Shown in pieces: positions 1,919-61,196 of a stretch of DNA of 64,000 nt. Within the stretch, counting starts at the first letter, position 1. Each line of letters opens with the position of its first letter. The stretch comes from Octopus sinensis (Eukaryota). The position numbers and the translations under genes were made by a program. The stretch covers positions 7,688,001-7,752,000 of the forward strand of contig NC_043000.1 in assembly GCF_006345805.1 (NCBI RefSeq). Reading direction: 5' to 3'. The notes under the pieces were generated by a model. The model was not told the DNA's origin and did not search any database. It saw only the letters and a list, made by a program, of their open reading frames with translations.

Positions 1919-3254
1919 GTAATGAAACCTGTAGATGTTTCCTTGTTGGCTCAAATCAGAATATATCTGAAGGAAAGTTGTTAGATGGGACAATAAACAT
2001 CAGAATGAAAGACTATTTGTAATATATCCTCTGTTGTTTGGTTAACAACATATACAGGTACTGAGAAGCAGATTAGCGAACTGATTGGTACATTTATTTT
2101 TCTTCTTAACGATGAAAGCTAAACATATATCCTTTTGATTCTCCATGAGGGATTGTGCTGTGATCAAGATCAAAAAGAAATATTCACTCGCAAAAATACT
2201 GTGGATTTGTAAAGAATTCTGAAAAGACTTTAAAAATGTTACCATTTTTTTTTTCCATTGTTTTGTTTTAGATTCATTGAGCCTGAGGAGATAAAGAATT
2301 AAAGATTCATCAATCTTTTGATCTTAGTGTAATATTGTTCTGAAAATAGGTTGGGAAAACATGATGGGAAGTCATCGGGGCTGTTAGCATAGTCAGTTGA
2401 CTAAAGGCAAACTTCAAGAAAGTACTTTACAATGAACAACAAGAAATATTAAATAGCACAAGACTGAAAATTAAACTTTATGTAGGCTACGTTTGAAGTT
2501 CAAGAAATCAAAGAATATGTTTGTTATGGTGACTTTCTGTGATCTTCCTTTGAGAAAAGAATGACACCATTTCAAAACAGAACTAACAGTCAACAATATT
2601 TCCTTGGAAATGTCGTATAAAATGCCATGGTCTCCAGCACTAAAGGAACGTTATGGTATTTCTGAATATCAAGGGAAAGTGTGAAGCTTGTCAATATACA
2701 TTTCGTGAAGTACATAAAAATTATAAATTCAGTCAGTTTGAAATGTGGCTTGAAGGAAAGTTATGATTAAGGTCAGTTAAAAAAAAAAGGAAAAATAAAA
2801 ATAAAAGTAACTTAACCCACTTAATACCAATAATATTTCCAGTTATTATGGATATATTGTTATAATTATTGGGAGATAATGAATAAAAAGAAAAATTGTA
2901 TCGTACTAGGGGAGACAAATGGATACAAGCTAGTCTCTGGGGAAAAGATCAAACAATCCGAGTAATTAAGAAAACCATGTCAGGAGGACAGGAATGGATA
3001 AAGTTGCCTTAGATTTCAAATTCCGGAGAAGTAGCAAATCACATCACCGTCATCGTTGTCGTCATCATCATCATCATCATCATTCATCATTCACTATCAT
3101 TGTTTTAACATGCATTTTTTCATGCTTGTTTGGGTTGAAGTAGATTTTTGACAGCAGGATGCCCTTCTTGTTATCAGCCCTCACCTGATTCCAAGTAAAG
3201 TAATAATTCATTATTTACATTTGACGGATATTTGTCCTCATCTTGTTTGTTGTT

Positions 3255-3300
3255 AACACAACGTTTCAGCTGATATACTCTCCAGCCTTCATCAGGTGTC
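3255..3300 (-). ncRNA. Minimal type I hammerhead ribozyme
   Basis: Minus strand reads GACAC CUGAUGA A GGCUG gagaguauau CAGCU GAAA C GUU GUGUU. Stem I is GACAC/GUGUU, the core is intact, stem II is GGCUG/CAGCU, stem III is the loopless palindrome ACGU, and the cleavage triplet is GUU. Confidence 0.85.
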
Positions 3301-3346
3301 TTGGGGAAATTTCGAACCTGGGTTCTCATTCCTAAGATATTTTTCG

Positions 3347-3377
<31 letters not shown>

Positions 3378-3756
3378 TCACTGCCTGGAATCAAACTCGG
3401 AATCTTGGGGTTAGTAGCCTGCGCTCTTAACCACTATACCATATACCCATGGGCATATGGCATAATGGTTAACCCCAAGATTCTGAGTTTGATTCCAGGC
3501 AGTGACCTGAATATATTAATTATAATGATAATAATAATAATAATATAATAATAATAATAATAATAATAATAAAATATAAATAATATGGTTAATCCCAAGA
3601 TTCTGAGTTTGATTCCAGGCAGTGACCTGAATAATATTAATAATAATGATAATAATAATAATAATAATAATGATAATAATAATAGTAATAATAATAATAA
3701 CATCAAAAAATACCTTAGGAATGAGAACCCAGGTTCGAAATTTCCCCAAGACACCT

Positions 3757-3800
3757 CACCTGATGAAGGCTGGAGGGTATATCAGCTAAAACGTTGTGTT
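3757..3800 (+). ncRNA. Mutated hammerhead ribozyme copy (family A)
   Basis: cac CTGATGA A GGCTG..CAGCT AAAA CGTT GTGTT; the GAAA box is mutated to AAAA. Confidence 0.65.
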
Positions 3801-4578
3801 AACAACAAACAAGATGAGGACAAATATCCGTCAAATGTAAATAATGTAAATAATTCCTCATCTCTTAAATATAGAACTGAAGCAATATTTCCCCTTGATT
3901 GGACAAGTTTCCACAGGAGTTTGTAAACAAGGACACTGTTTTTATGATCCTGACATTTGTTTACAATTATCATGTGATATCAAGGCAAGATCATACACCA
4001 ACACACACATACACACGCTGAACATCTTTCCGTTTCCATCTACCAAATTCTTTCGCAATTCTTTAGTCAGCCTTGGACTATAGTAGAAAAAAAAATTACC
4101 TGAGGTGCTTTGCAATGGGACTGAACTTGAAACCCTGTGGTTGTGAAGCAATTAAAAATAATGGAATTCAGTAAAATCATTTTGAATATTTCCTGACTAC
4201 AAAAATAACACGATACCAGTGACAGGGATTGAGCTGAAGTACTTTGACACAGAAGTTCAGTACTTCAAAAGCATGCATCATATAAAGCTTATATATTGCC
4301 TGTAAGATTATAGTTTCCTTTTCTAAAACCTAAAAGTAAAAATAAAATGTTGAAAAGTGACGCAAATGAAGATCGTAATCTAAAAGCTAACCTATTGATT
4401 TATCTCAATACTTTAACTCAAAGACAAAGATATATTTAAGTCAGACACCGAGCTGCTAATGTGTTCTGTTTTATGGCCATGATGCTGTTGTTCGTCAAAA
4501 ATAGAACATTGGTAACATAAAGAGATTCATATCAAATTAGTGACAAAATTTTGTCGATCGCATAATTTTGTAATTCAG

Positions 4579-8680: not shown

Positions 8681-8894
8681 AAGCTTTAAACTTGCAGACA
8701 GAATTAGGGAACTGATTGTCTCATCAGCTTAGCATGTAGATTAACAACAGGAACATAGAGACAGAGGTTATAAAAAAAAAGGCAGGAGATGCTGCTGATG
8801 CTGATGATGATGACAGTGGTATTGTGCAGAAATTAAAATAATCTTAGAATGATGGATTCCTTTATGAGAATATGTTTACCGTGGCCACTGCCAT

Positions 8895-11435
8895 CATTGT
8901 CACCACCATCACCCTCTACCATCACCCTCTACCATCACCCACCACCACCAAAACCACCATCACCCACCACCATCACCCACCACCATCACCCACCACCATC
9001 ACCCACCACCATCACCCTCTACCATCACCCACCACCACAAAACCACCATCACCCACCACCATCACCCACACCACCAACCCACCACCATCACCCCCACCAC
9101 CATCACCTCTACCATCACCCACACACCAAAAACCACCATCACCCACCACCATCACCACCCACCATCACCCCCACCATCACCCACCACCATCACCCTCTAC
9201 ACCTCACCCACCACCACCAAAACCACCATCACCACCACCATCACCCACCACCATCACCCACCACCATCACCCACCACCATCACCCTCTACCATCACCCAC
9301 CACCACCAAAACCACCATCACCCCACCACCATCACCCACCACCATCACCCACCACCATCACACACCACCATCACCCTCTCCCATCACCCACCACCACCAA
9401 AACCACCATCACCCACCACCATCAACCCCACCATCACCCCCACCACCATCACCCCCACCATCCACATCACCCTCTAACCATCACCCACCACCACCAAAAC
9501 ACCCCATCAACCCCACCCCATCACCCACCACCATCACCCACCACCATCACCCACCACCCATCACCTCTACCATCACCCACCACCCCAAAACCACCATCAC
9601 CCCCACCTCACCATCACCCACCACCATCACCCTCTACCCATCACCCACCACCACCAAAACCACCATCACACCCCCACCACCATCACCCACCACCATCACC
9701 AACACCATCACCCACCACCATCACCCTCTACCATCACCCACCACCCCCAAAACCACCATCACCCACACCATCACCCACCACCATCACCCACCACCATCAC
9801 CCACCACCATCACCCTCTACCATCACCCACCACCACCAAAACCACCATCACCCACCACCATCACCCACCACCATCACCCTCTACCATCACCCACCACCAC
9901 CAAAACCACCATCACCCACCACCATCACCCACCACCATCACCCACCACCATCACCCACCACCATCACCCTCTACCATCACCCACCACCACCAAAACCACC
10001 ATCACCCACCACCATCACCCACCACCATCACCCACCACCATCACCCACCACCATCACCCTCTACCATCACCCACCACCACCAAAACCACCATCACCCACC
10101 ACCATCACCCACCACCATCACCCCCACCCTCACCCACCACCATCACCCTCTACCATCAACCCACCACCACCAAAACCAAACCACCATCACCCACCACCAT
10201 CACCCCACCACCATCACCCTCTACCATCACCCACCACCACCCAAAACCACCATCACCCACCACCATCACCCACCCCACCATCACCCACCACCATCACCCA
10301 CCACCACCACCATCACCCTCTACCATCACCCCCCACCACCAAAACCACCATCACCCACCACCATCACCCCACCACCTCACCACCCACCACCATCACCACC
10401 CACCATCACCCTCTAATACCCATCACCCACCACCACCAAAACCATCATCACCCACCACCATCACCCACCACCATCCACCCTCTACCATCACCCACCACCA
10501 CCAAAACCACCATCACCCACCACCATCACCCACCACCATCACCCACCACCATCACCCACCACCATCACCCTCTACCATCACCCCACCACCACCAAAACCA
10601 CCATCACCCACCACCATCACCCACCACCATCACCCACCACCATCACCCACCACCATCACCCTCTACCATCACCCACCACCACCAAAACCATCATCACCCA
10701 CCACCATCACCCACCACCATCACCCTCTCCATCACCCACCACCACCAAACCACCATCACCCACCACCATCACCCACCACCATCACCCTCTACCATCACCC
10801 ACCACCACCAAAACCACCATCACCCACCACCATCACCCACCACCATCACCCACCACCATCACCCACCACCATCACCCCTCTACCATCACCCACCACCCCA
10901 AAACCACCATCACCACCACCACCATCACCCACCAACCACCATCACCACCACCATCACCCACCACCATCACCTCTACCATCACCCACCACCACCAAAACCA
11001 TCATCACCCACCACCATCACCCACCCACCACCATCACCCACCACCATCACCCTCTACCATCACCACCACCACCACCAAAACCATCATCACCCACCACCAT
11101 CACCCACCACCATCACCCACCACCATCACCCTCTACCATCACCCACCACCACCAAAACCATCATCACCCACCACCATCACCCACCACCATCACCCACCAC
11201 CATCACCCTCTACCATCACCCACCACCACCAAAACCACCATCACCCACCACCATCACCCACCACCATCACCCTCTACCATCACCCACCACCACCAAAACC
11301 ACCATCACCCACCACCATCACCCACCACCATCACACCCACCACCATCAACCACCACCATCACCCACACCTCTACCATCACACCCACCACCACCAAACCAC
11401 ACACCATCACCCACCCCATCACCCACCACCATCAC
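8895..11435. repeat. G-less C/A-rich minisatellite with a 13-bp base unit and higher-order variants
   Basis: Units CACCACCATCACC, CTCTACCATCACC and CACCACCACCAAAA recur in ordered blocks over about 2.5 kb. Confidence 0.95.
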
Positions 11436-11856
11436 CTGATTGTCTCATCACTTAGCATGTAGATTAATCAACAGAACATACATACAGAGGTTATACAAAA
11501 AAAGTGCAGGAGATGCTGCTGATGCTATGATGATCACAGTGGTATTGTGCAAAATTAAAATAATCTTAGAATGATGGATTCCTTTATGAGAATATTTATA
11601 CCGTGGCCACCCTAGCCATCATTGTCCCCACCATCCACCCACCACCATCACCACCCCCACCATCCACCCTACTCCATCGCACCCTCTACCATCACCCTCT
11701 ACCATCACCCACCACCACCAAAACCATCATCACTGGTGCCTTAATTAGGGAAATTAGATTTGCTTGTTTCTATTTAAGGTAGATCAATAAGTTTCGATTC
11801 AAATATATCTTTATTTGATATATGATGATAAAGTTTCTTTGGGAGACTGATACTTT

Positions 11857-21087: not shown

Positions 21088-21252
21088 TGGTTTTCGTTAT
21101 ATTATTATCTTTACTCTGTTCACTGTGCAAGAACTATACTACTTGTTGAAGCCTTACCACACATGCACACATACACATGTGTGTGCATGACTGAATTTTT
21201 CCTTTATGGTATCACACTGCCCCTGGCTGTTTATATTAAGTTATATATATAT

Positions 21253-21526
21253 GGAGAGAAGATTTTTTTCTCAAAGAGTTAAGATTGAGAAAAGAACCTT
21301 TTTAGAAAGTCGAAAGGCACGAACCTTTGGGAAGAGATAACACAAAATGCATGTGGCTTTTGCTTTTAATACTTGCTTGAAAACATTAAGAACTGAAAAC
21401 GCTTGCACATCTATAAAAGCAAAAGCCAAACACATTTTGTGAAATCTCTTCCCAAAGGTTCGTGCCTTTCGACTTTCTAAAAATGGTTCTTTCTCAATCT
21501 TAACTCTTTGAGAAAAAATCTCTCCA
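21253..21526. repeat. Fold-back repeat (about 115-bp arms, 45-bp spacer with a possible decayed hammerhead)
   Basis: Arms 21253-21368 and 21414-21526. The spacer reads tgcttgaaaacattaagaactgaaaacgcttgca. Confidence 0.8.
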
Positions 21527-21788
21527 AATATAAGTGTATCAAGGAATTCCCAAATACTCCACATTATATATGTTGTGTGTGTGTGTATTAAATAAGTATA
21601 TATATAATATATAATATATAATATATATAGGTATATATATCTCTGTGTGTGTGTGTATGTATGTATGTATATATAATATATATATATATGGAGGTTATGA
21701 GAGGTAGTGGTTTAGTGAGACCCAAAGGTGTCACGTAATGCTGATAAAGTGCTATGGAAAGACCATAGTTAACCATCTTCTCACACCA

Positions 21789-21834: not shown

Positions 21835-21947
21835 CCTATCTATAAATGTTCTATCTACACAGCCTTTGTTTTTTTTATTTCGTTATGGAAATAAATTATA
21901 TATTATATATATATATTAAAAAAGGAGATGTGGAACACGAGTTGTGA

Positions 21948-22280
21948 TATATAAAAAAGGAAATGAGAAAATGCTGACAAAATAATTTAAGTAAGGGGAG
22001 TGTATTTAATTAGGTTGAAAGTTCTTTTTACGGTTGCGCATTTGTTATGCTTATCAAAAGATATTTTGAGTGAGATAAAGTTCTTTCTGATAGATTTTTT
22101 CTCTTATCTGGATAAGAGAAAAAAATCTATCAGAAAGGAACTCTATCTCTCTTAAAAAAATATCTTTTGATAAGCATAACAAATGCGCAACCGGTAAAAA
22201 GAACTTTCACCTAATTAAATACACTCTCCCTTACTTAAATTATTTTGTCAGCATTTTCTTCATTTCCTTTTTTTTTATAT
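21948..22280. mobile_element. Fold-back element, hammerhead family B (about 165-bp arms, no spacer)
   Basis: Palindrome centred at about 22110. The right arm has ttt TTGATAA GCAT aacaa ATGC GCAA CCGG TA aaa (22164-22199), a decayed hammerhead with stem II and the ACCGGT stem III preserved; it is mirrored at 22027-22062. Confidence 0.7.
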
Positions 22281-22520
22281 ATATATGTATTGATGTATGT
22301 ATGTATGATGGATTTCTGCAGTAATCTACCAAAGGTTGTGGTAAAAGATATTTTCAAATGTGTCCACACACTAGGATTGAACCCAGAACCAAGATATTGT
22401 GAAGCAAGCTTCTTAACTATATATCCATGTCTGCACCCATGTTTGAAAGCTAAGCATTTCTGGAGAAAAGCATATTCTTTTGGCGAATACATATATATGT
22501 ATATAATACATATATACATT

Positions 22521-22604
<84 letters not shown>

Positions 22605-23104
22605 CATATACATATACATACACACACATAATATATATATATATATATATATAATATATATATATATATATGTATATACAGCTGCTATTAAATTATATTA
22701 TTGTTGAATGAGTAACATTCTGTTTTCTAAAAATAAAACCAAAAAACTGAAAAAATCTCATCTTGCAGTTTAAATTAAAATTGTTCTTGATTTCAGAGTT
22801 TCTTGTCTCGTCATTCATTAACTTGTTCTGCGGCAGTATAGAAATATCTGGTGATTAGATTATAAGAAAGTCTAATTTGTGTCCAAGGCTATGTAATATA
22901 TCATTTTGAGTCAATTCAACTGTATGTTTCTTTAGTGATCATTTTCACTCTGCACAGATATTTATGTAGACAATAAACACAAGATTCTGAACAGAGGTAG
23001 ATCAAATGATTATATCGTTATTTTTGGCTTTAAAATAATGTGCATCAGTGGCTGTCTCCACATCACGTTCTATCAAGATGTATCTCATATATATGAGAAA
23101 TATG

Positions 23105-23136
<32 letters not shown>

Positions 23137-23138
23137 GT

Positions 23139-23267
<129 letters not shown>

Positions 23268-23499
23268 TTATATAGGAGGAAAGTAAGAAAAATAAACGGA
23301 AATGCACATTGTAAATAAAAAAAAAGTAAATGCTTTTTATGAAAAGTAACGAAAGATATATACAATTAGATGAACTGAGGTGGGAATACAAGTAATAAAA
23401 GTCATTATTGTGAATTGTTAAAGAGATTCAAGCATACTGGTGGTTTCGTAAGTTACTAGTCATTGCTTTGAATAATGCTTAACAACATTAATAGCAACA

Positions 23500-24802: not shown

Positions 24803-24861
<59 letters not shown>

Positions 24862-25255
24862 CTAGCAGTATCGCCCGGCGTTGCTCGGGTTTGTAAGGGA
24901 AATAACTATATAAGCATTTTTAGAGATGTAAAGTATAATAGCTATCTCAATATGGCTAACCACAAAGGGGGGGGGTGTTACTGTAGCTTTTTACGTTCTG
25001 AGATTTAATAATACATTTTTAGAGAGTTACTTCCCTTATATAATAGCAAAAAAATGCATTAAAAATGGGAAAAAATGATGGTAAATCTTTTTTTAAATCG
25101 TAGACTAATCGTAGATGTTCGCTAATACCCAGAAGGGCTCGATATGAATCACGACTATAAGATACCCGGTTTTGGTTAAACTGCACCGCAAAATGTGGGA
25201 GTAAGGAATCTAAATCGTAGGAGACAGACACACAACTTCACTTTTATATATAAAG

Positions 25256-34418: not shown

Positions 34419-34759
34419 ATTAGGAATAAATCAAATTTGCAGGGAAAAATCAGATTTAGGATTGAATCCAATTTTATAGTAAAATATTATATTATATTAA
34501 TTAGAGATAAAACCACTATTATGCAAATCAAACAAAGAAAGACTTAAGCCAATACATAAAATTTTTTATATAAATTAAATATAATTAAAATAATCACTAC
34601 GATCGTTTTGAAACCACCTGAAGAATGTCTCATAGAAGTGCTGACACGAAACGATCGTAGTGGTTATTTTAATTATATTTAATTTATATAAAATTTTTTA
34701 TGTATTGGCTTAAGTCTTTCTTTGTTTGATTTGTATAATAGTGGTTTTATCTCTAATCA

Positions 34760-40407: not shown

Positions 40408-41959
40408 TTGCGGCCAAAATGTTCAGATTTTGGTGTAATTTGAGAGGATAATACAAAAGTTATGGATGATTTAGTGATTTACTGCAAAACCCATGGCGGC
40501 CAAAATGATCAGAACGGTTGAAAAAATAACAAAATAATCAAAAATGACAGAGAATACTGGAATTATTTAATATTAGTGTGAAGCCCTTAGTTTCAATCAC
40601 ACTCTGACATCTTTGACTGCATGAGGAAATAAAATTTTCAATTTCTTGCTGGGTGATCTTATCCATTCTCCTGAAGGGCATTCCATAATTGGTCAGTTGT
40701 TTTAGGATTTCTGGCTTTCGAACGTTCTCCTAGAATATTCCATACATTTTCAATAGGATTGAGATCTGGGCTTTGAGCAGGCCAATCCATAACAATAACC
40801 TTTTCAGCCTTGAGGAAGTTCATGACCACCTTAGCCTTGTGACATGGGGCATTGTCCTGCATGAATATGGGTGGTCGCATAGTTGAATTTCTCAGCACAG
40901 GCAATATGGGTGGTCGCATAGTTGAATTTCTCAGCACAGGCAAGACATGATCTTTTACTAGTTGTTTATAAACTCCTGCATTTACCTTTCCATGTAATCG
41001 CACTAAAGGGCCCACACCATCTCTAGATATCATCCCCCAAACCATGACACTTCCTCCACCGAATTTAACACTAGTCTTAAGGCATTTAGGCGACAATTTT
41101 TCACCTACTTTTCGACGAACGTACCTTTTCCCATCTGAGCCAAATAACATAAACTTAGATTCATCACTGAAATGCACCGTTTGCCATTTTTCTTGAGATC
41201 ACGACACATGTTCGGTTGCAAAGGTAAGACAGCACTTTTTATTCTTGGAGCTGATTAGTGGCTTCACTGCAGGTGCTCTTGCTTGTAGGTCATGTTCAAC
41301 TAAACGACGAGACACAGTTTTTCGAGATAAAGTTTTCTTCAATACAATGCTCATTTTCTGAGAAACAGCAGCAGCAGTTTTAAATCTGTCCTTTTTAACC
41401 AACTTTACCATAGCACGATCTTCTCTCTTGGTTGTTTTTCTTGGCCTACCTGTAGACTTTCTTGCTTCACACGAACCACAATCATCGTAGACCTTAAGAA
41501 TACCGTGTACAACACTTTTTGACTTGTTAACAATCTTTGCAATAGATCCAATACTTAAATTATCCTTCTTTCGAAGCTTAATAATCTGCTGACGAATTGG
41601 TAACGGAGTAAGTGGCATTATATTAACAAAGTACACTGCAAATATTCTTACTAATGTTTAGTAAACGAAGTGTCACGTAAACAAATTCAAAACATTAGAG
41701 TTCGCCGGTTAAATATACTAAAACACAGAGTAAAAGCAACCGTTCTGATCATTTTGGCCGCCATGGGTTTTGCAGTAAATCACTAAATCATCCATAACTT
41801 TTGTATTATCCTCTCAAATTACACCAAAATCTCGGCAATAACAAATAATATCGTATTTATTGTCTGTGAAAATTATAGAATATAAAACAACATTGATAAA
41901 AAATTATACATACTTTTCTGACGAAAACAATGCCGTTCTGAACATTTTGGCCGAAACTG
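40404..41959 (-). mobile_element. Tc1-family DD34E transposon, IR/DR type, near full length but inactivated
   Basis: TA|CAGTT..AACTG|TA termini within (TA)n. TIRs carry a repeated ggccaaaatg(t/a)tcaga site. Transposase motifs GRPRKT, FSDESKF, VMVWG, MQDNAPCH and WPAQSPDLNPIE (34 residues between D and E). Confidence 0.95.
40568..41618 (-). pseudogene. Tc1 transposase pseudogene
   Basis: In-frame TGA at 41199-41201 joins the two ORFs. There is a 39-bp in-frame duplication at 40864-40943 and frameshifts near the C-terminus. Confidence 0.9.
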
Positions 41960-45987: not shown

Positions 45988-46466
45988 ATTTGTGTATTAA
46001 GGCTACCATTGGTTTCATATTAAGAAAAATATCTCAGTATCCTAACAATTTTTAAAGCTGATCACATGGAGGAATGGTGTTCATCTCCATTTTAATTGTT
46101 AAGATATTTATAACATTGAAACCATTGGTAGCCTTAATACACAAATGCGTGTGTATATAAAGTCAATTCAAGGATGTCATATCCTCATTAGGGATTAATA
46201 AATCCAAACTTTCACTGGTTTAATCTCCATTACATTATACCATTGGTTCATATTAAGAAAAATATCTCAGTATCCTAACATTTTTAAAGCTGATCACATG
46301 AGGATGGTGTTCATCTCCATTTTAATTGTTAGATATTTATAACATTGAAACCATTGGTAGCCTTAATACACAAATGCGTGTGTATATAAAGTCAATTCAA
46401 GATGTCATATCCTCATTAGGGATTAATAAATCCAAACTTTCACTGGTTTAATCTCCCTTACATTAG
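45988..46466. repeat. Short fold-back with hammerhead-like 3' half, tandemly duplicated (234-bp period)
   Basis: tttgtgtattaaggctaccattggtttca is inverted as tGAAACCATTGGTAgccttaatacacaaa. 46004-46237 is repeated at 46238-46466 with single-base deletions. Confidence 0.65.
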
Positions 46467-53051: not shown

Positions 53052-53187
53052 ATAAGTAATAATTTTATATTCAGGTATAAAGACCATTCGCAGTATTCAG
53101 CTACCTGATGTTATCAATAGTTTGTAGGTATATACCACTGGGTTTATTTCAGCAATTCCTTTGTGTCTGTAGACTTTGTAAAATTAC

Positions 53188-53372
53188 GAGAGAAAGAAAA
53201 TGGAATTCGTGAGGCTCTGTATTTACTATGCTCATTTTTATCCATTGTGCACCGGTACCTCGCTGGTGGGATGCTGTACAAATAATTGTGGTACATTATA
53301 GGTACTAGTGCACAATAGTTTCAAACAATCATAGTAAATAAAAGTTTCAGGAATTCCATTTTCTTTCTCTCT
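53188..53372. repeat. Fold-back repeat (about 70-bp arms)
   Basis: gagagaaagaaaatggaattc..gtgcaccggtacct is inverted as aggtactagtgcac..gaattccattttctttctctc. Confidence 0.75.
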
Positions 53373-53417
53373 TATATATATATTACTTTTATATATAAAG
53401 ATATATATATATATATA

Positions 53418-53798
53418 TCTTCTCTCTATATATAAACGGCAGTTTGTCTGTGCGTTTTCTGTGTGTCTGTTTGCTTGTACCCCACCCTGACCACGGCTTT
53501 CAACCGATTCTGATGAACTTGACACACACATAGCCCAATGTCATAATTCAAAACTAACGCAGCGAAAATTTTGAAAGTTCCCCCAGTTCTGAAAAAAATC
53601 GATAAATTCGACATGGGTCGAGATTTAGAACACAAAACCGCAAACTGTCTAGGGGACGCAACTCCACCTTTTTTAACTAAAAAAAATTTACCATCATTTT
53701 TTTTTCCATTTTTTTGCTATTTTTTGGCTATAACTCTCTAAAAATGCTTTATAGTTATTTCCCTTACAAACCTGAGCAACGCCGGGCGATACTGCTAG
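53418..53798 (+). mobile_element. Non-autonomous Helitron
   Basis: A|TC start, 3' hairpin cctgagcaacgccggg then CTAG|T. The 3' part is shared with 24862-25256. Confidence 0.85.
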
Positions 53799-53807
53799 TA
53801 TATATAT

Positions 53808-54240
53808 AATTTAGTGTACATTTGAACACAAAGAGGCGAGCCTTAACAGGTTGCCTTACATACTAGAAGGAACAGTCAAAAAGTCCAAACCACAGTAAAG
53901 AGCAATTTTATTTTGTCTCTAATTTATATGTTACTGTTTTGGTGTATCCGCTGATGAGAACTTTGCCTTGCAAATTATCTTATTTGCTAATTAAAGTTCG
54001 AAACATAATGTCCAGCTGTAAAACATGGTAAATCTTTTTATTTTTCATTCCCTTCAAAATTGCTCTTAACTGTGGTTTGGACATTTTGACTGTTCCTTCT
54101 AGTATGTAAGGCAACCTGTTAAGGCTTGCCTCTTTGTGTTTAAATGTACAGTAAATTTTATATGAAAAATATGTCTATTGACTTTGTATACATGCTAGGC
54201 CACTGGTAGAAAAATTTCTATAATTTTTCCTACCCTATAT
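53808..54240 (+). mobile_element. Fold-back element, hammerhead family D
   Basis: Arm 53808-53909 is inverted at 54056-54160 with the ribozyme in the spacer. 54150-54240 is homologous to 56090-56190. Confidence 0.8.
53945..54018 (+). ncRNA. Type I hammerhead ribozyme with long stem II
   Basis: CUGAUGA (53951-57), stem II GAACUUU/AAAGUUC with an inner GCAAAU/AUUUGC hairpin, GAAA, stem III ACA-uaa-UGU, GUC site. Stem I (auccg/cagcu) is partly mismatched. Confidence 0.8.
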
Positions 54241-55398
54241 TAATTTTAAGAAATTATATATATATATATCTGTGTCATGCTAAATCTCCCTGAGAAGCAT
54301 GTTAAGGGTACACACGTCTGTGGTGTGCTCAACCACGTGGGTTAATTTCACGAGCAGGCTGTACCATTGATTGGATCAACTGGAACCCTCGTCATCGTAA
54401 CCGATGGAGTGCCAGTTAGTTATATAGTTTATAGATCCAATATGGTTAAAATCAACAAAAAAATTATTCCGTCCACTGAGAGATAGATATTAATTTAATA
54501 CACATTACGAAAGTGCTACTAATAGTTTCATACTTTTACGATGATTTAAATGGGTATATTTTTAGATAATATGACATGCATCTCCAAGCAATTTTCTGGC
54601 TCTTTTTATGCATTAGACGTATTTTAAAAAACAGGACACTGGACATTGAGAAAATAAGATGAAACAAGAAGAAAAAAATGAGCAAAGAATATTGATGTAA
54701 AAGTGGAAGGAGAAGAAAGAAATGAAAGCAAGAAAACCAATTTCCCCATCCCTTCTGCATCTTACTACTCATTTTTTTTTCTTTCTTTCTTCCTTTCTTT
54801 CTTTTTTTTTTCACTGCCCAGTGAAATATATCTAATGCATAAACAGAGCCTGAAAGATTGCTTGGAGATGCATGGTGCATTTTATAAATATGCCTGTTTA
54901 AAGTATCATAAAAGCATGAACCTATTACTAGCTCTTTCATAATGCATATTAAATTGTTATATATATATATATATATACTTACATATATATATGTGTATAT
55001 ATGTGAAGGTGCATGGCTTAGTGGTTAGGGCTATAGCAAAAAATACTTATCCATGCTGTCATGCAGTGGGATTGAACTTGGAACCATGTGGCTGGGAAGC
55101 AAACTTCTTACTTCACACCCATGCTTGTACCTGTTGCCATGTTTGTCACCTATTTGTGACACCAGTTCCTGATTAGTCACTATTTTCCTGTATATCAGTG
55201 GCATTGAGGTTTTGCCAGCAATGATGATAGTGAATACCTGTTGCTGATAAAGTACAAGCATGCAGAAATCACATGATCTAGCAGTTCTATCATTGCCGCT
55301 GCTGGCCAGTTTATGTCTGCCACTGATTTTTCTGTGCTATTAAGCACTAAGCATTACTATGGGATGTTCTTTCAAGATGTATACCACAGTATTAGAGC

Positions 55399-55445
<47 letters not shown>

Positions 55446-55447
<2 letters not shown>

Positions 55448-56203
55448 CGGTGTACATTTAAACACATAAGGAATCCACTCGTGGGATCCAACATGCTAGA
55501 AAGAACAGCTAGGTTCCATAACCACAAAAATTAGGGATAAAATTTGACAGGAACGAAATGAAAAAATAAAAACATTTTACCAATAAGTTTCCTGGACCAA
55601 TTGGTTTCTGATTTTAGTTTAGAAAGCAAATAACATTTGCTCACGAGGTGAAATCATCCTCAACAGGTACACCTTGGGTTAAATATATAAACACGAGGCA
55701 ATCAAACTATGTGCCTCTTGTTTATACATCCTAAGTTTTTCAAAATCTACTGCGCAGATGCAGCCCTTCACCGGCAATAAAAAAATGCCAACTTTTAAAA
55801 ACTGAAAATTATCCAAAAACTTGCAATACTTAATCATATCAAAGGGAAATGGAAATTAATTAAAATTTTCATTTCCAGTGGCCTAACGTGTAAAACTTTA
55901 GTCCAAAGACTATGTATTAGTCATAACATATAGTATACATTTAAACACATAAGAAATCCACTTGTGGGATTCAACATGCTAGAAAGAACAGCTAGGTTCT
56001 ATAACCACAAAAATTAGGGATAAAATTTGACAGGAACGAAATGAAAAAATAAAAACATGTTGAATCCCACAAGTGGATTTCTTATGTGTTTAAATGTATA
56101 CTATATGTTATGACTAATACATAGTCTTTGGACTAAATTTTTACACGTTAGGCCACTGGAAATGAAAATTTTAATTAATTTCCATTTCCCTTTGATATGA
56201 TTT
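55446..56203 (-). mobile_element. Hammerhead family D element with terminal direct repeat and inverted partial copy (Penelope pLTR-like)
   Basis: 55453-55575 is repeated at 55936-56058 (period 483). 55831-55978 is inverted at 56056-56202. Flanked by (TA)n. Confidence 0.85.
55591..55667 (-). ncRNA. Type I hammerhead ribozyme (C3U variant)
   Basis: Minus strand reads CCUG UUGAGGA UGAUUU..GCAAAU guu AUUUGC..AAAUCA GAAA CCAAUUGG UC CAGG, with palindromic stem III ACCAAUUGGU and a GUC site. Confidence 0.8.
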
Positions 56204-58080
56204 AATATATATAGATAAATAGATAGATAAATAGATAGATAGATAGATACACACAATTATACAGATATATATATGTAAAATGTTTTTATGCTATTAATAA
56301 AAGAAATTTAACATTTAATTGACTGATCACTCAATATTTTTTCGTAGAGTACTTATTTATTATAAATTGCTTCATGAAAATGATTGATAATAACTTTGAA
56401 ATCTTGGCTTACTCTGACAGTGGCTAGAAAGCCAAATCTTTGAAGTCACAGTCAACTCGTTTCTTGTAAAATTAGAAATCTTCATCACCTAATTAGGCAT
56501 CAACTCCTGTATTCGGAGGTGGAGTACAGCAGCTCCTCTGTTTGTACCCTAAATTCATTAATATACACATGCACACACACACAACACACACACACACACA
56601 CACACCATGCACACACATTCATATGTATAGCTTTACAACTTTCGGTTGTTTGAACTAAAAAGTTGTACCTTCCCTCCACCCCACTACAGTAGCTAGAGTG
56701 TGTGCCACCTAGGGTAGCCCTTCAGTTTGTGAGCCCCAGGCCCCACAAAAAATACATATTGTCTACAACAGACCCAAAAGTGGTGCTGCCCCCATAAATG
56801 TGCTGCCCAGGGCAGACCACCCCCTTTGACCCCTGCTCTGGCTATGCTAGTGCGCTTCCCCCTCATGGCTTATGATCCCATTAACCCATTTGATACCAAC
56901 CTGCTTGAAACAGCCTTTAGTTCTATGGTAAAAGCAAAAAAAATTCTTGCTTTGTTGTGCTGTAGTTTTAAATTTAATCTTTCCATTATCATTTTACATA
57001 AGAACCTTTTGTGAAGTTCTATGCCGAATATCAGCTTCGTAATGAAAGCATTTGTTATTTTACTAACTTGCTTTAATTTCATGATTATATTTTTCAAAAT
57101 TAATTTAAAAACATTGGCAATGTTTTCCATTAGAAATATGGCCACGGAAAGGTTATGTAAATAAAAAAAGATAATAAACAAATTAAAAGGAAAAATATAA
57201 ATGAGTATTGTTTAGCAATTGATCAGATTTAAAATCTTTTATTAACTTGAGCATAATTTCACATTATAGTTATTACAGTTTCCATAGTAGACAACTAATA
57301 ATTTTGAACATAATATAATTGCAGTCCACGGAAAAGAGTTACTTATTTCTTCTCTCTTTCTCTCCCCATACTTTCTCTCAGAATAAGATGTAACTGCAAG
57401 ATTGTATTCTGTTGGGAAAAATATTCCGATCAATATTGCTTTTCTGTTTATCCAGTAATTATGTGAGAAAAAATGTTGGATTAATCGGACACATATATTG
57501 GCGATGTGTAAAGGACACTTATGATCTTACTATTAGAATTTGGCAGATACTTCACTTAGTATTGATATTATTCAGGAATAGTCAATAAATATACATTAGC
57601 ATATTCCCTTCATTCATAATACCTATAATGTATATATATATATATATAGAGAGAGATTTAGATATGCATCCATAGGTCTTGGGGATGTCAGTGTAACCTA
57701 GCTCATTGGATATTAAATTTGGGAATAGGTTTATATTTCATAGTTGTGATATCGCAGAATTCATTTATATAACCTGTAAAAATGGAATATTGGATGGGAG
57801 ATAAAAACAAGTAAATAAATTAATTAAACAAAGCATACCATACTAAAGTATGTGATATCATTGGCATTCAGCACATCTGACCACATGCATTCCTGTATCT
57901 AGCTTACTGTTCTAAGTTTAAATTCTAGCAGAGGTCGATTAGTAAACTATTAGAGCTGATGCTGGCTTCCTAGAAAGCAGATTTTGTGACTGAACAAAAT
58001 GATGGTGCAATGTATGTAACTTCAAGACCATGCATGCAAAGACAGCTACTGGAGACGGTTAACTAACCAATCTAGTAAGT

Positions 58081-60719: not shown

Positions 60720-61196
60720 ACTGTTATGAATCATAATATCCTATCATTAATTCCTTTCTACAATAGTAAATAATAGATAAAAATATAGTTATCTTATTTT
60801 GTATTGAGTACAAAAATGCGGCATAGTGTCGAATGATGTTCATAGATGGACACTGCCTTTACTTAATATAAAATAATGCACCTTAATCATTGGACAGCCA
60901 TGAGTAACGGATTAGATAGTGAGCAGAATAAAGTTTGAATAAAATTCATCATAAACCAATTCAAAGAAGGGTTTTATTCAAACTTTATTCTGCTTACCGT
61001 CTAATCCGTTAATCATGGCTGTCCAATGATTAAAATGCCTTGTTTTATATCAGGTAAAGACAATATCTGTCTATCAACGTCATCCAACACTCTGCCACAT
61101 TTTCGTATTCAATACAAACAAAGATATCTGTATTTCCATTTATTATTTACTATTGAAGAAAAGAATTAATAATAGGGTATTATAATTCATAACAGT
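60720..61196. mobile_element. Long palindromic MITE-like element (about 225-bp arms)
   Basis: actgttatgaat...attcataacagt termini; the arms mirror each other around a spacer at about 60945-60972. A further end fragment lies at 59620-59686. Confidence 0.85.

What the first reader, a model, noticed from the sequence alone, without database searches (positions are those of the whole stretch)
55446..56203. Family D: 483-nt monomer with terminal redundancy, inversion and circular permutation between copies
Seen: read in ribozyme sense (minus), the copy runs R-X-...-hammerhead-R, about 1.25 monomers with a period of 483, capped by an inverted 147-bp piece. The diverged copy at 53808-54240 reads hammerhead-R-X and is capped by a different inverted piece. 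The two ribozymes differ in all stems yet both keep the GCAAAU/AUUUGC inner hairpin. Inference: variable start points and more-than-unit length are what reverse transcription of a circular or tandem ribozyme-processed RNA would leave behind (retrozyme-like).
Basis: partly seen in the sequence, partly recalled or inferred. Interest (0 to 1): 0.72.

Follow-up and report, generated by a model that had tools for sequence, protein, structure and literature searches.

The report
Penelope-type hammerhead retroelement stumps
This is a broken-off, partly mirrored copy of a very abundant non-coding repeat that carries a predicted self-cutting RNA; its two fixed ends on TA runs make it most likely an ordinary passenger of a Penelope-type jumping gene rather than the footprint of a circular RNA.

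Summary
The anatomy is real. The copy holds a 613-nt direct piece of period 483, a 147-nt inverted cap and a type I hammerhead fold; a 65% identical copy lies at 53809-54254. 'Circular permutation with variable ends' is wrong. All four outer ends fall at two fixed sites about 100 nt apart, each on (TA)n; only the inner 5' breakpoints vary. About 2,000 contigs in each of two public runs match the monomer and show the same TA-joined ends. Partial tandem, head-to-head inversion, optional tail, hammerhead, microsatellite target and a predicted retained 75-85-nt intron make up the published insertion signature of Penelope-like elements (PLEs). The cap follows its neighbouring arm at 6 of 6 sites where the two repeats differ, so the template likely held two already different monomers, not one circle read round twice. 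Best reading: a non-autonomous PLE derivative, the class also called animal retrozymes. No partner reverse transcriptase, cleavage, splicing or circle was shown. New member of a known kind, with an unusually long tail.

The parts
55401..55444 (.). (TA)22 target run at End A of copy D
55445..55495 (-). 3' copy of R after the predicted intron: hairpin, conserved TGTGTTTAAATGTAC block, fixed 3' End A
   Evidence: TA loose end at the equivalent place 55928 in one contig of run X14
55496..55580 (-). Predicted retained spliceosomal intron, 85 nt (GTAAAA ... CTGTTCTTTCTAG); splicing not shown
   Evidence: donor and acceptor blocks conserved with copy E
55591..55667 (-). Type I hammerhead fold: stem I 4 bp, core UUGAGGA (U3), long stem II with inner hairpin, palindromic 10-nt stem III, predicted cut after GUC at 55595
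   Evidence: compensatory variants; activity untested
55668..55825 (-). Spacer X between tail and hammerhead; non-coding
   Evidence: longest stop-free stretch in the monomer 58 codons; contigs span the tail-X junction (table 8)
55826..55927 (-). Optional 'tail' of about 97-102 nt between End A and End B
   Evidence: TA loose ends at 55826 (15 contigs X1, 2 X14, 4 X15) and 55831 (10 contigs X1); same segment ends copy E
55928..56058 (-). 5' copy of R (upstream monomer), truncated 6 nt into the predicted intron
56056..56203 (+). Inverted cap, head-to-head, ending at End B; 3-nt CAT microhomology at the inner junction
56204..56249 (.). TA / (ATAG)n flank at End B of copy D
53809..53909 (-). Copy E inverted cap, ending at End A on (TA)n 53799-53808
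53910..54254 (+). Copy E direct piece: end of X, hammerhead (core 53951, cut after 54012, stem I decayed), predicted 75-nt intron 54028-54102, R, tail to End B on (TA)n 54255-54269

Best explanation
D and E are 5'-truncated, head-to-head inverted copies of a high-copy non-coding 483-nt repeat with a predicted type I hammerhead, and they were likely inserted by the reverse transcriptase-endonuclease of a Penelope-like element acting in trans. Shown: the repeat, the inversion, two fixed 3' ends about 100 nt apart on (TA)n, variable inner breakpoints, family-wide recurrence. Inferred mechanism: a partial-tandem donor locus is transcribed into a linear unspliced RNA, possibly cut at its 5' end by the upstream hammerhead. 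The PLE protein nicks both strands of a (TA)n run. Each nick primes reverse transcription at one of two internal start sites (A or B) through UA/UAU pairing. The two cDNAs stop at different places and are joined by microhomology. D used A for the long arm and B for the cap; E used B and A. That swap, plus different 5' truncation, is what looks like circular permutation.
For: End A sits 5 nt past GTACA(C/G) in both copies and End B just past TTAAG in both. TA loose ends recur at 55826/55831 in three of four runs' listed rows and at 55928 in one (24 of 477 rows shown). 1915 and 2101 contigs laid in X1 and X2, and listed contigs span the tail-X junction. Published PLE signature: partial tandem, adjacent inverted 5'-truncated copy, optional tail, microsatellite bias (PMC8557442); head-to-head is the usual arrangement and microhomology joins occur (PMC3846280); a purified PLE protein cuts and extends both target strands from two internal start sites that define the tail (PMC11167929). 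PLE hammerheads have a short helix I, long helix II and palindromic helix III (PMC4209133), as here (stem III self-duplex -13.0 kcal/mol). Intron-like GT...AG segments of 85 and 75 nt start 14-15 nt after the cut site in both copies; Penelope's pLTR holds a 75-bp intron (PMC8557442). Two unrelated hammerhead-bearing, microsatellite-flanked inverted families occur in the same window (three hits with 4/4 stem I against 0.03 per shuffled window).
Against: No autonomous partner was found: no PLE RT or GIY-YIG among 50 of 56 ORFs scanned, no genome held, no metagenome match. The tail is about 100 nt against the published 30-40. No target-site duplication can be read in (TA)n. D's U3-G8 core and E's broken stem I may be inactive, and the hammerhead is not the lowest-energy fold (-12.6 against -16.7 kcal/mol). 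No spliced joint appears among the 15 of 25 joints listed. A snap-back model explains the cap equally well. Only two full copies could be read end to end.
Confidence: 0.78

Rival explanations
1. Same family, but mobilised from a hammerhead-cut, ligated circle of about 483 nt that reverse transcriptase reads more than once round (classical animal retrozyme model).
For: Type I hammerhead, 32% GC, tandem unit; circles are proven for coral, mussel and axolotl retrozymes (PMC7229834) and proposed for PLEs (PMC4209133). D's direct piece starts 19 nt after the cut-site equivalent. Palindromic stem III suits dimer cleavage in tandems.
Against: D has one hammerhead. The two R repeats differ at 8 of 133 while arm and cap differ at 1 of 147 (p 0.015), and at four of the six sites (those listed) the family majority (83-99% of depth in X1) has the 3' R base while arm and cap share the rare one. 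The monomer is longer than the 170-400 nt of validated invertebrate circles and folds only modestly better than shuffles (z -1.65; 3 of 60 as good). In the anole PLE, ribozyme mutants inserted normally in vitro (PMC11167929).
Confidence: 0.2
2. PLE-derived, but the cap is made by snap-back: the single cDNA folds at the CAT/ATG microhomology, copies itself, and is cut or stops at site A or B.
For: The cap mirrors the adjacent arm, rare bases included; 3-nt microhomology closes a 77-nt loop; self-priming was proposed for PLE inversions (PMC3846280).
Against: Needs a second, unshown step to explain why caps stop at the same two sites; two-strand priming from the same start sites is shown in vitro (PMC11167929).
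Confidence: 0.3
3. These are just 3' stumps of an autonomous PLE; the 483 period comes from one truncated copy landing beside another.
For: Most PLE insertions are 5'-truncated; two listed contigs (1139 and 1336 nt) carry about 1 kb of other sequence upstream of X that I could not read (table 8).
Against: The tail-X junction is spanned by listed contigs in three of four runs, so the short non-coding unit is a family feature; both copies reach a stop codon about 21-23 codons after the start of the predicted second exon.
Confidence: 0.15
4. One-off local duplication and inversion, or a palindromic DNA transposon (MITE).
For: TA flanks and inverted arms resemble Tc1-type MITEs; a Tc1 element on (TA)n is in the window.
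Against: About 2,000 contigs per run match; inner breakpoints differ between copies and among listed opposite-strand joints (55625, 55712, 55726); left and right ends are not fixed mirror images (A with B); hammerhead covariation.
Confidence: 0.03

Closest known systems
Insertion architecture of endonuclease-bearing Penelope-like elements (PMC8557442, PMC3846280, PMC11167929)
   Same: Partial tandem, adjacent head-to-head inverted 5'-truncated copy, optional tail at one end, hammerhead in the terminal repeat, microsatellite target, predicted retained intron, microhomology at inner junction.
   Different: No ORF; tail about 100 nt instead of 30-40; intron predicted downstream of the ribozyme (in D. 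virilis Penelope the intron ends at the 5' side of helix I, PMC4209133); partner element not identified.
Animal non-LTR retrozymes (PMC7229834; bioRxiv 10.64898/2026.07.22.740005)
   Same: Non-coding, low-GC tandem unit with a type I hammerhead, dispersed at high copy; 483 nt lies within the 51-972 bp range of the preprint.
   Different: Neither copy has two hammerheads (the preprint's criterion for an active retrozyme); no circle shown; longer than validated invertebrate circles; inverted caps and two fixed 3' ends were not seen in the passages I read (the word 'inverted' has 0 occurrences in PMC7229834).
PLE minimal/variant hammerheads (PMC4209133)
   Same: Short helix I, long helix II, palindromic helix III suited to dimers, high within-genome variability with compensatory changes.
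   Different: Helix II carries a 36-nt insert with its own hairpin; D has U3-G8 rather than C3-G8 or the published U3-A8 variant; whether U3 is family-wide could not be read.

Membership tests
Penelope-like element (EN+) insertion | Partial tandem plus adjacent inverted 5'-truncated copy | tested here: met
Penelope-like element (EN+) insertion | Two alternative fixed 3' ends (optional tail) | tested here: met
   Both copies and contig loose ends; length about 100 nt, not 30-40
Penelope-like element (EN+) insertion | Type I hammerhead motif in the terminal repeat | tested here: met
   D by descriptor, 0 of 5000 shuffles; E core canonical but stem I 2 of 4; Rfam models do not hit
Penelope-like element (EN+) insertion | AT-rich or microsatellite target | tested here: met
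   All four ends on TA runs; TA and one CA loose-end consensus
Penelope-like element (EN+) insertion | Retained spliceosomal intron in the terminal repeat | tested here: inconclusive
   GT...AG segments of 85 and 75 nt in both copies; no spliced joint among 15 of 25 listed
Autonomous Penelope-like element | ORF with RT and GIY-YIG endonuclease | tested here: not met
   Longest stop-free stretch 58 codons; none among 50 of 56 window ORFs
Non-autonomous PLE derivative | Terminal repeat shared with an autonomous PLE of the same genome | not testable with these tools
   No genome held; contigs cannot be fetched; metagenome scan empty
Animal non-LTR retrozyme | Non-coding low-GC tandem unit with type I hammerhead | tested here: met
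   32% GC, period 483; tail-X junction recurs
Animal non-LTR retrozyme | Two consecutive units with complete hammerheads | tested here: not met
   One hammerhead each in D and E; other loci unknown, listed pieces do not span even one monomer
Animal non-LTR retrozyme | Self-cleavage and abundant circular RNA | not testable with these tools
   Only contigs were served; no holder on record as RNA

The most novel reading that the evidence does not exclude
A very high-copy mini-element that joins the two literatures in one 483-nt unit: a dimer-type hammerhead that can release monomers and circles, a retained spliceosomal intron 15 nt after the cut, and two PLE priming sites a full 100 nt apart, each behind its own covarying hairpin. 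It would be the smallest natural substrate showing which RNA (unspliced linear tandem, cut monomer or circle) a Penelope protein actually copies, with thousands of copies recording the choice.
Probability: 0.2. Interest if true: 0.58.

Novelty: new member of a known kind. Interest (0 to 1): 0.3.

Why it matters
Whether animal retrozymes move through circles or as linear passengers of Penelope-like elements is open; the 2026 preprint links them by phylogeny in frogs and says its life-cycle evidence is limited. A family with thousands of copies, two fixed 3' ends and internal divergence between tandem repeats lets that be tested from one assembly. As it stands the locus is a clean instance of published PLE architecture; the long tail and predicted intron are details for specialists.

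Tried and rejected
Rfam at gathering over the window: 0 hits; at E up to 10 over 53500-56500 no hammerhead model hit D or E, and a 20.9-bit HH9 hit at 55228-55301 (cut-off 52) lies outside the element and is taken as chance. No own genome. Pfam on 50 of 56 ORFs of 100 aa or more (left out: five in the CCA repeat 8837-11462 and one at 23063-23365): no PLE domain. nhmmer with the D/E alignment found no third copy in the window. Metagenome pattern scan: 0 matches. No RNA holder listed; runs X14 and X15 are only guessed to be RNA and are contigs, so their thin cover of X and the hammerhead is not used for or against expression or circles. 'Goes back 483' joints are not circle or tandem evidence: my reference was cut between hammerhead and R, so they only restore the normal order. 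Summed contig depth steps up at End A and End B but the tool says it is no copy number, so I give it little weight. A-to-I editing as the source of R-R differences was considered and dropped: the differences are C>T and G>A in both directions, and the family majority sides with the 3' copy. Free folding does not recover the hammerhead (z -0.94 and -0.87). Earlier findings by place and sequence: none. Paper searches for a prior description of this family (hammerhead + Penelope + octopus; hammerhead ribozyme + cephalopod) found none; the host guess behind those searches is recalled, not tested, Repbase/Dfam were not searchable, and bioRxiv supplements were not seen.

Full report
Setting. The window is AT-rich, repeat-dense eukaryotic DNA with 110 tandem-repeat rows. 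No genome is held for it. Its repeats resemble octopus repeats from my memory; no call tested that. Public runs of four coded organisms hold part of the monomer.

Observation. Read on the minus strand, copy D has a direct piece from 56058 to 55446 with period 483. The repeat R occurs at 55440-55578 and 55923-56061. An inverted cap, 56056-56202, mirrors 55832-55978 at 146 of 147 bases, with a 3-nt CAT overlap at the inner junction. A type I hammerhead fold lies at 55667-55591: stem I CCUG/CAGG, core UUGAGGA and GAAA, a 6-bp outer stem II with an inner hairpin, a perfect 10-nt palindrome as stem III, and GUC ending at 55595. None of 5000 dinucleotide shuffles of the monomer met that descriptor. 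Copy E (53809-54254, plus strand) is 64-65% identical, has a canonical CUGAUGA core and an 8-bp stem II, but its stem I pairs at 2 of 4 positions and it failed the strict descriptor. Rfam hammerhead models hit neither copy, and free folding does not give the ribozyme. No third copy is in the window.

The ends are fixed, not permuted. In D the sense 3' end lies 5 nt past GTACAC and joins (TA)22; call this End A. E's cap ends at the same place, 5 nt past the same motif, on (TA)n. D's cap ends at or just past GATT(AAG); call this End B. E's sense 3' end lies 4 nt past TTAAG on (TA)n, the aligned position. So D is A plus B and E is B plus A, and the segment between the sites is about 97-102 nt in both. 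The four inner breakpoints all differ: intron +6 and exon +1 in D, about 40 nt before the core and intron +29 in E. E's direct piece is shorter than one monomer, so it is a truncation.

Family evidence. I laid one monomer (55566-56061) on contigs of 4 of the 24 runs listed. 1915 and 2101 contigs were laid in X1 and X2, and 68 and 103 in X14 and X15, which are only guessed to be RNA. Among 24 of 477 loose-end rows shown, TA runs join at 55826 (15 contigs in X1, 2 in X14, 4 in X15), 55831 (10 in X1) and 55928, the End A equivalent (1 in X14); none of the six X2 rows shown is a TA end, and one X15 row shows a TA run at 55618, away from both sites. Listed pieces cross the tail-to-X junction in X1, X2 and X15, so the 483 unit is a family property. 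Opposite-strand joints occur at other places in X2 (55625, 55712, 55726). In the inner hairpin, 66-77% of depth has U for C at 55639 and 72-76% has A for G at its partner 55627, a compensatory swap; X14 and X15 show an unrelated hairpin sequence there. Structure is kept, the GCAAAU/AUUUGC letters are not. Position 55663 (U3) is not among the 40 of 148 variant rows shown, so I cannot say whether U3 is private.

Template test. If reverse transcriptase had gone round one circle, the two R repeats would start identical and then drift like arm and cap. They differ at 8 of 133, arm and cap at 1 of 147 (Fisher p 0.015). In the 50 nt present three times, six sites separate the repeats and the cap follows the adjacent arm at all six. 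At the four of these listed the family majority matches the 3' repeat (83-99% of X1 depth). The template therefore likely held two different monomers, as an aged partial-tandem donor would. Later gene conversion between arms could mimic this, but E's arms differ at 6 of 108 and another palindrome's arms are 96% identical, so conversion is not general here. Against my reading: D's direct piece starts 19 nt after the place where the upstream ribozyme would cut, which fits a ribozyme-made 5' end.

Predicted intron. Both copies have GTAAA 14-15 nt after the cut site and CTGTT(C/T)TTCTAG 85 or 75 nt later; these blocks are conserved between the 65% identical copies. E and the loose-end consensus of 18 and 19 contigs have ATG just before the GT; D has TTG. 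Both copies reach a stop about 21-23 codons after the acceptor in that frame. No spliced joint is among the 15 of 25 joints listed. D's cap begins exactly at the first base after the acceptor; E's does not, so this may be chance.

Comparison with print. PMC8557442 (passages): PLE insertions are 5'-truncated partial tandems, often with an adjacent inverted copy and a 30-40 bp tail at either end, hammerheads in the pLTR, microsatellite bias, and a 75-bp intron in Penelope's pLTR. PMC3846280 (passages and Discussion): head-to-head is the usual arrangement, microhomology joins occur, self-priming is proposed. PMC11167929 (parts 1-2 of 4): a purified anole PLE protein cuts AT-rich DNA on both strands and starts reverse transcription at two internal sites that define the tail, with no strand difference; ribozyme mutants still insert. 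PMC4209133 (parts 1-2 of 4): PLE hammerheads have short helix I, long helix II and palindromic helix III, pairs on opposite strands 100-700 bp apart were seen, and a circular template was proposed. PMC7229834 (passages and section 14): circles of about 170-400 nt proven in coral, mussel and axolotl. bioRxiv 10.64898/2026.07.22.740005 (parts 1-3 of 5; supplements not seen): animal retrozymes as non-autonomous PLE derivatives, 51-972 bp, one of nine tested dimers cleaved. PMC13282606 (passages): 31 recently active PLE families in Octopus vulgaris, no mention of hammerheads; relevant only if my host guess holds. Two earlier AI notes on other genomes reached the same PLE reading; they are not independent support.

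Mechanism. Shown: anatomy, two fixed ends, microsatellite joins, recurrence, covariation. Inferred: transcription of a partial-tandem donor; a PLE protein in trans nicking both strands of (TA)n; priming at A or B on each side; microhomology joining of two truncated cDNAs. Snap-back synthesis of the cap is the main mechanistic rival. A circle may exist for the family at loci with two ribozymes, but neither copy here has two, and the monomer's circular fold is unremarkable (-102.9 against -93.6 +/- 5.6 kcal/mol; 3 of 60 shuffles as good). No partner ORF was found.

Verdict. Real feature; new member of a known kind. It works like a PLE insertion on four tested features, fails the autonomous test, and its partner, cleavage, splicing and circles are untested. 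The 100-nt tail, the long stem II insert and the predicted downstream intron are the unusual details. I found no description of this family, which do not cover repeat databases. Interest 0.30.

Noticed in passing
window:34484-34774: Unrelated palindrome on TA-rich flanks (arms 96% identical) with a minimal hammerhead at its centre, core at 34618 plus strand, 4/4 stem I, palindromic stem III: a second PLE-type stump.
   Followed up: partly
window:1537-1923 and 3199-3879: (ATT)n-associated inverted repeat family with a minimal hammerhead, core at 3295 minus strand: a third PLE-type family.
   Followed up: partly
window:40405-41960: Tc1-type transposon on (TA)n with inverted ends and a split transposase (DDE_3 at 40662-41198, HTH_Tnp_Tc3_2 at 41202-41657).
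   Followed up: partly
window:60259-60558: Remnant RNase H domain of a reverse transcriptase (PF17917).
   Followed up: no
window:53679-53808 and 24852-25093: Copy E sits in the (TA)n end of another repeat whose terminal 75 nt are 97% identical to 24852-24926.
   Followed up: no
window:20786-21101, 21246-21532, 21947-22282, 53185-53374, 54483-54964, 60720-61196, 45988-46465: Further palindromic elements, several on TA-rich flanks, without a hammerhead hit in my relaxed scan; 45988-46465 combines a 234-nt tandem with an inversion.
   Followed up: partly
window:55832-55870 and 54207-54236: A hairpin of different sequence but the same position precedes End B in D and E, as another does before End A; each priming site may need an upstream hairpin.
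   Followed up: partly
window:8901-11436: 2.5-kb degenerate (CCA)n array giving long stop-free frames.
   Followed up: no
window:30054-30811: 378-nt tandem duplication, 96% identical, bounded by (TG)n; no hammerhead hit.
   Followed up: no
window:6888-7232: Helix-turn-helix DUF4817 fragment on the minus strand.
   Followed up: no
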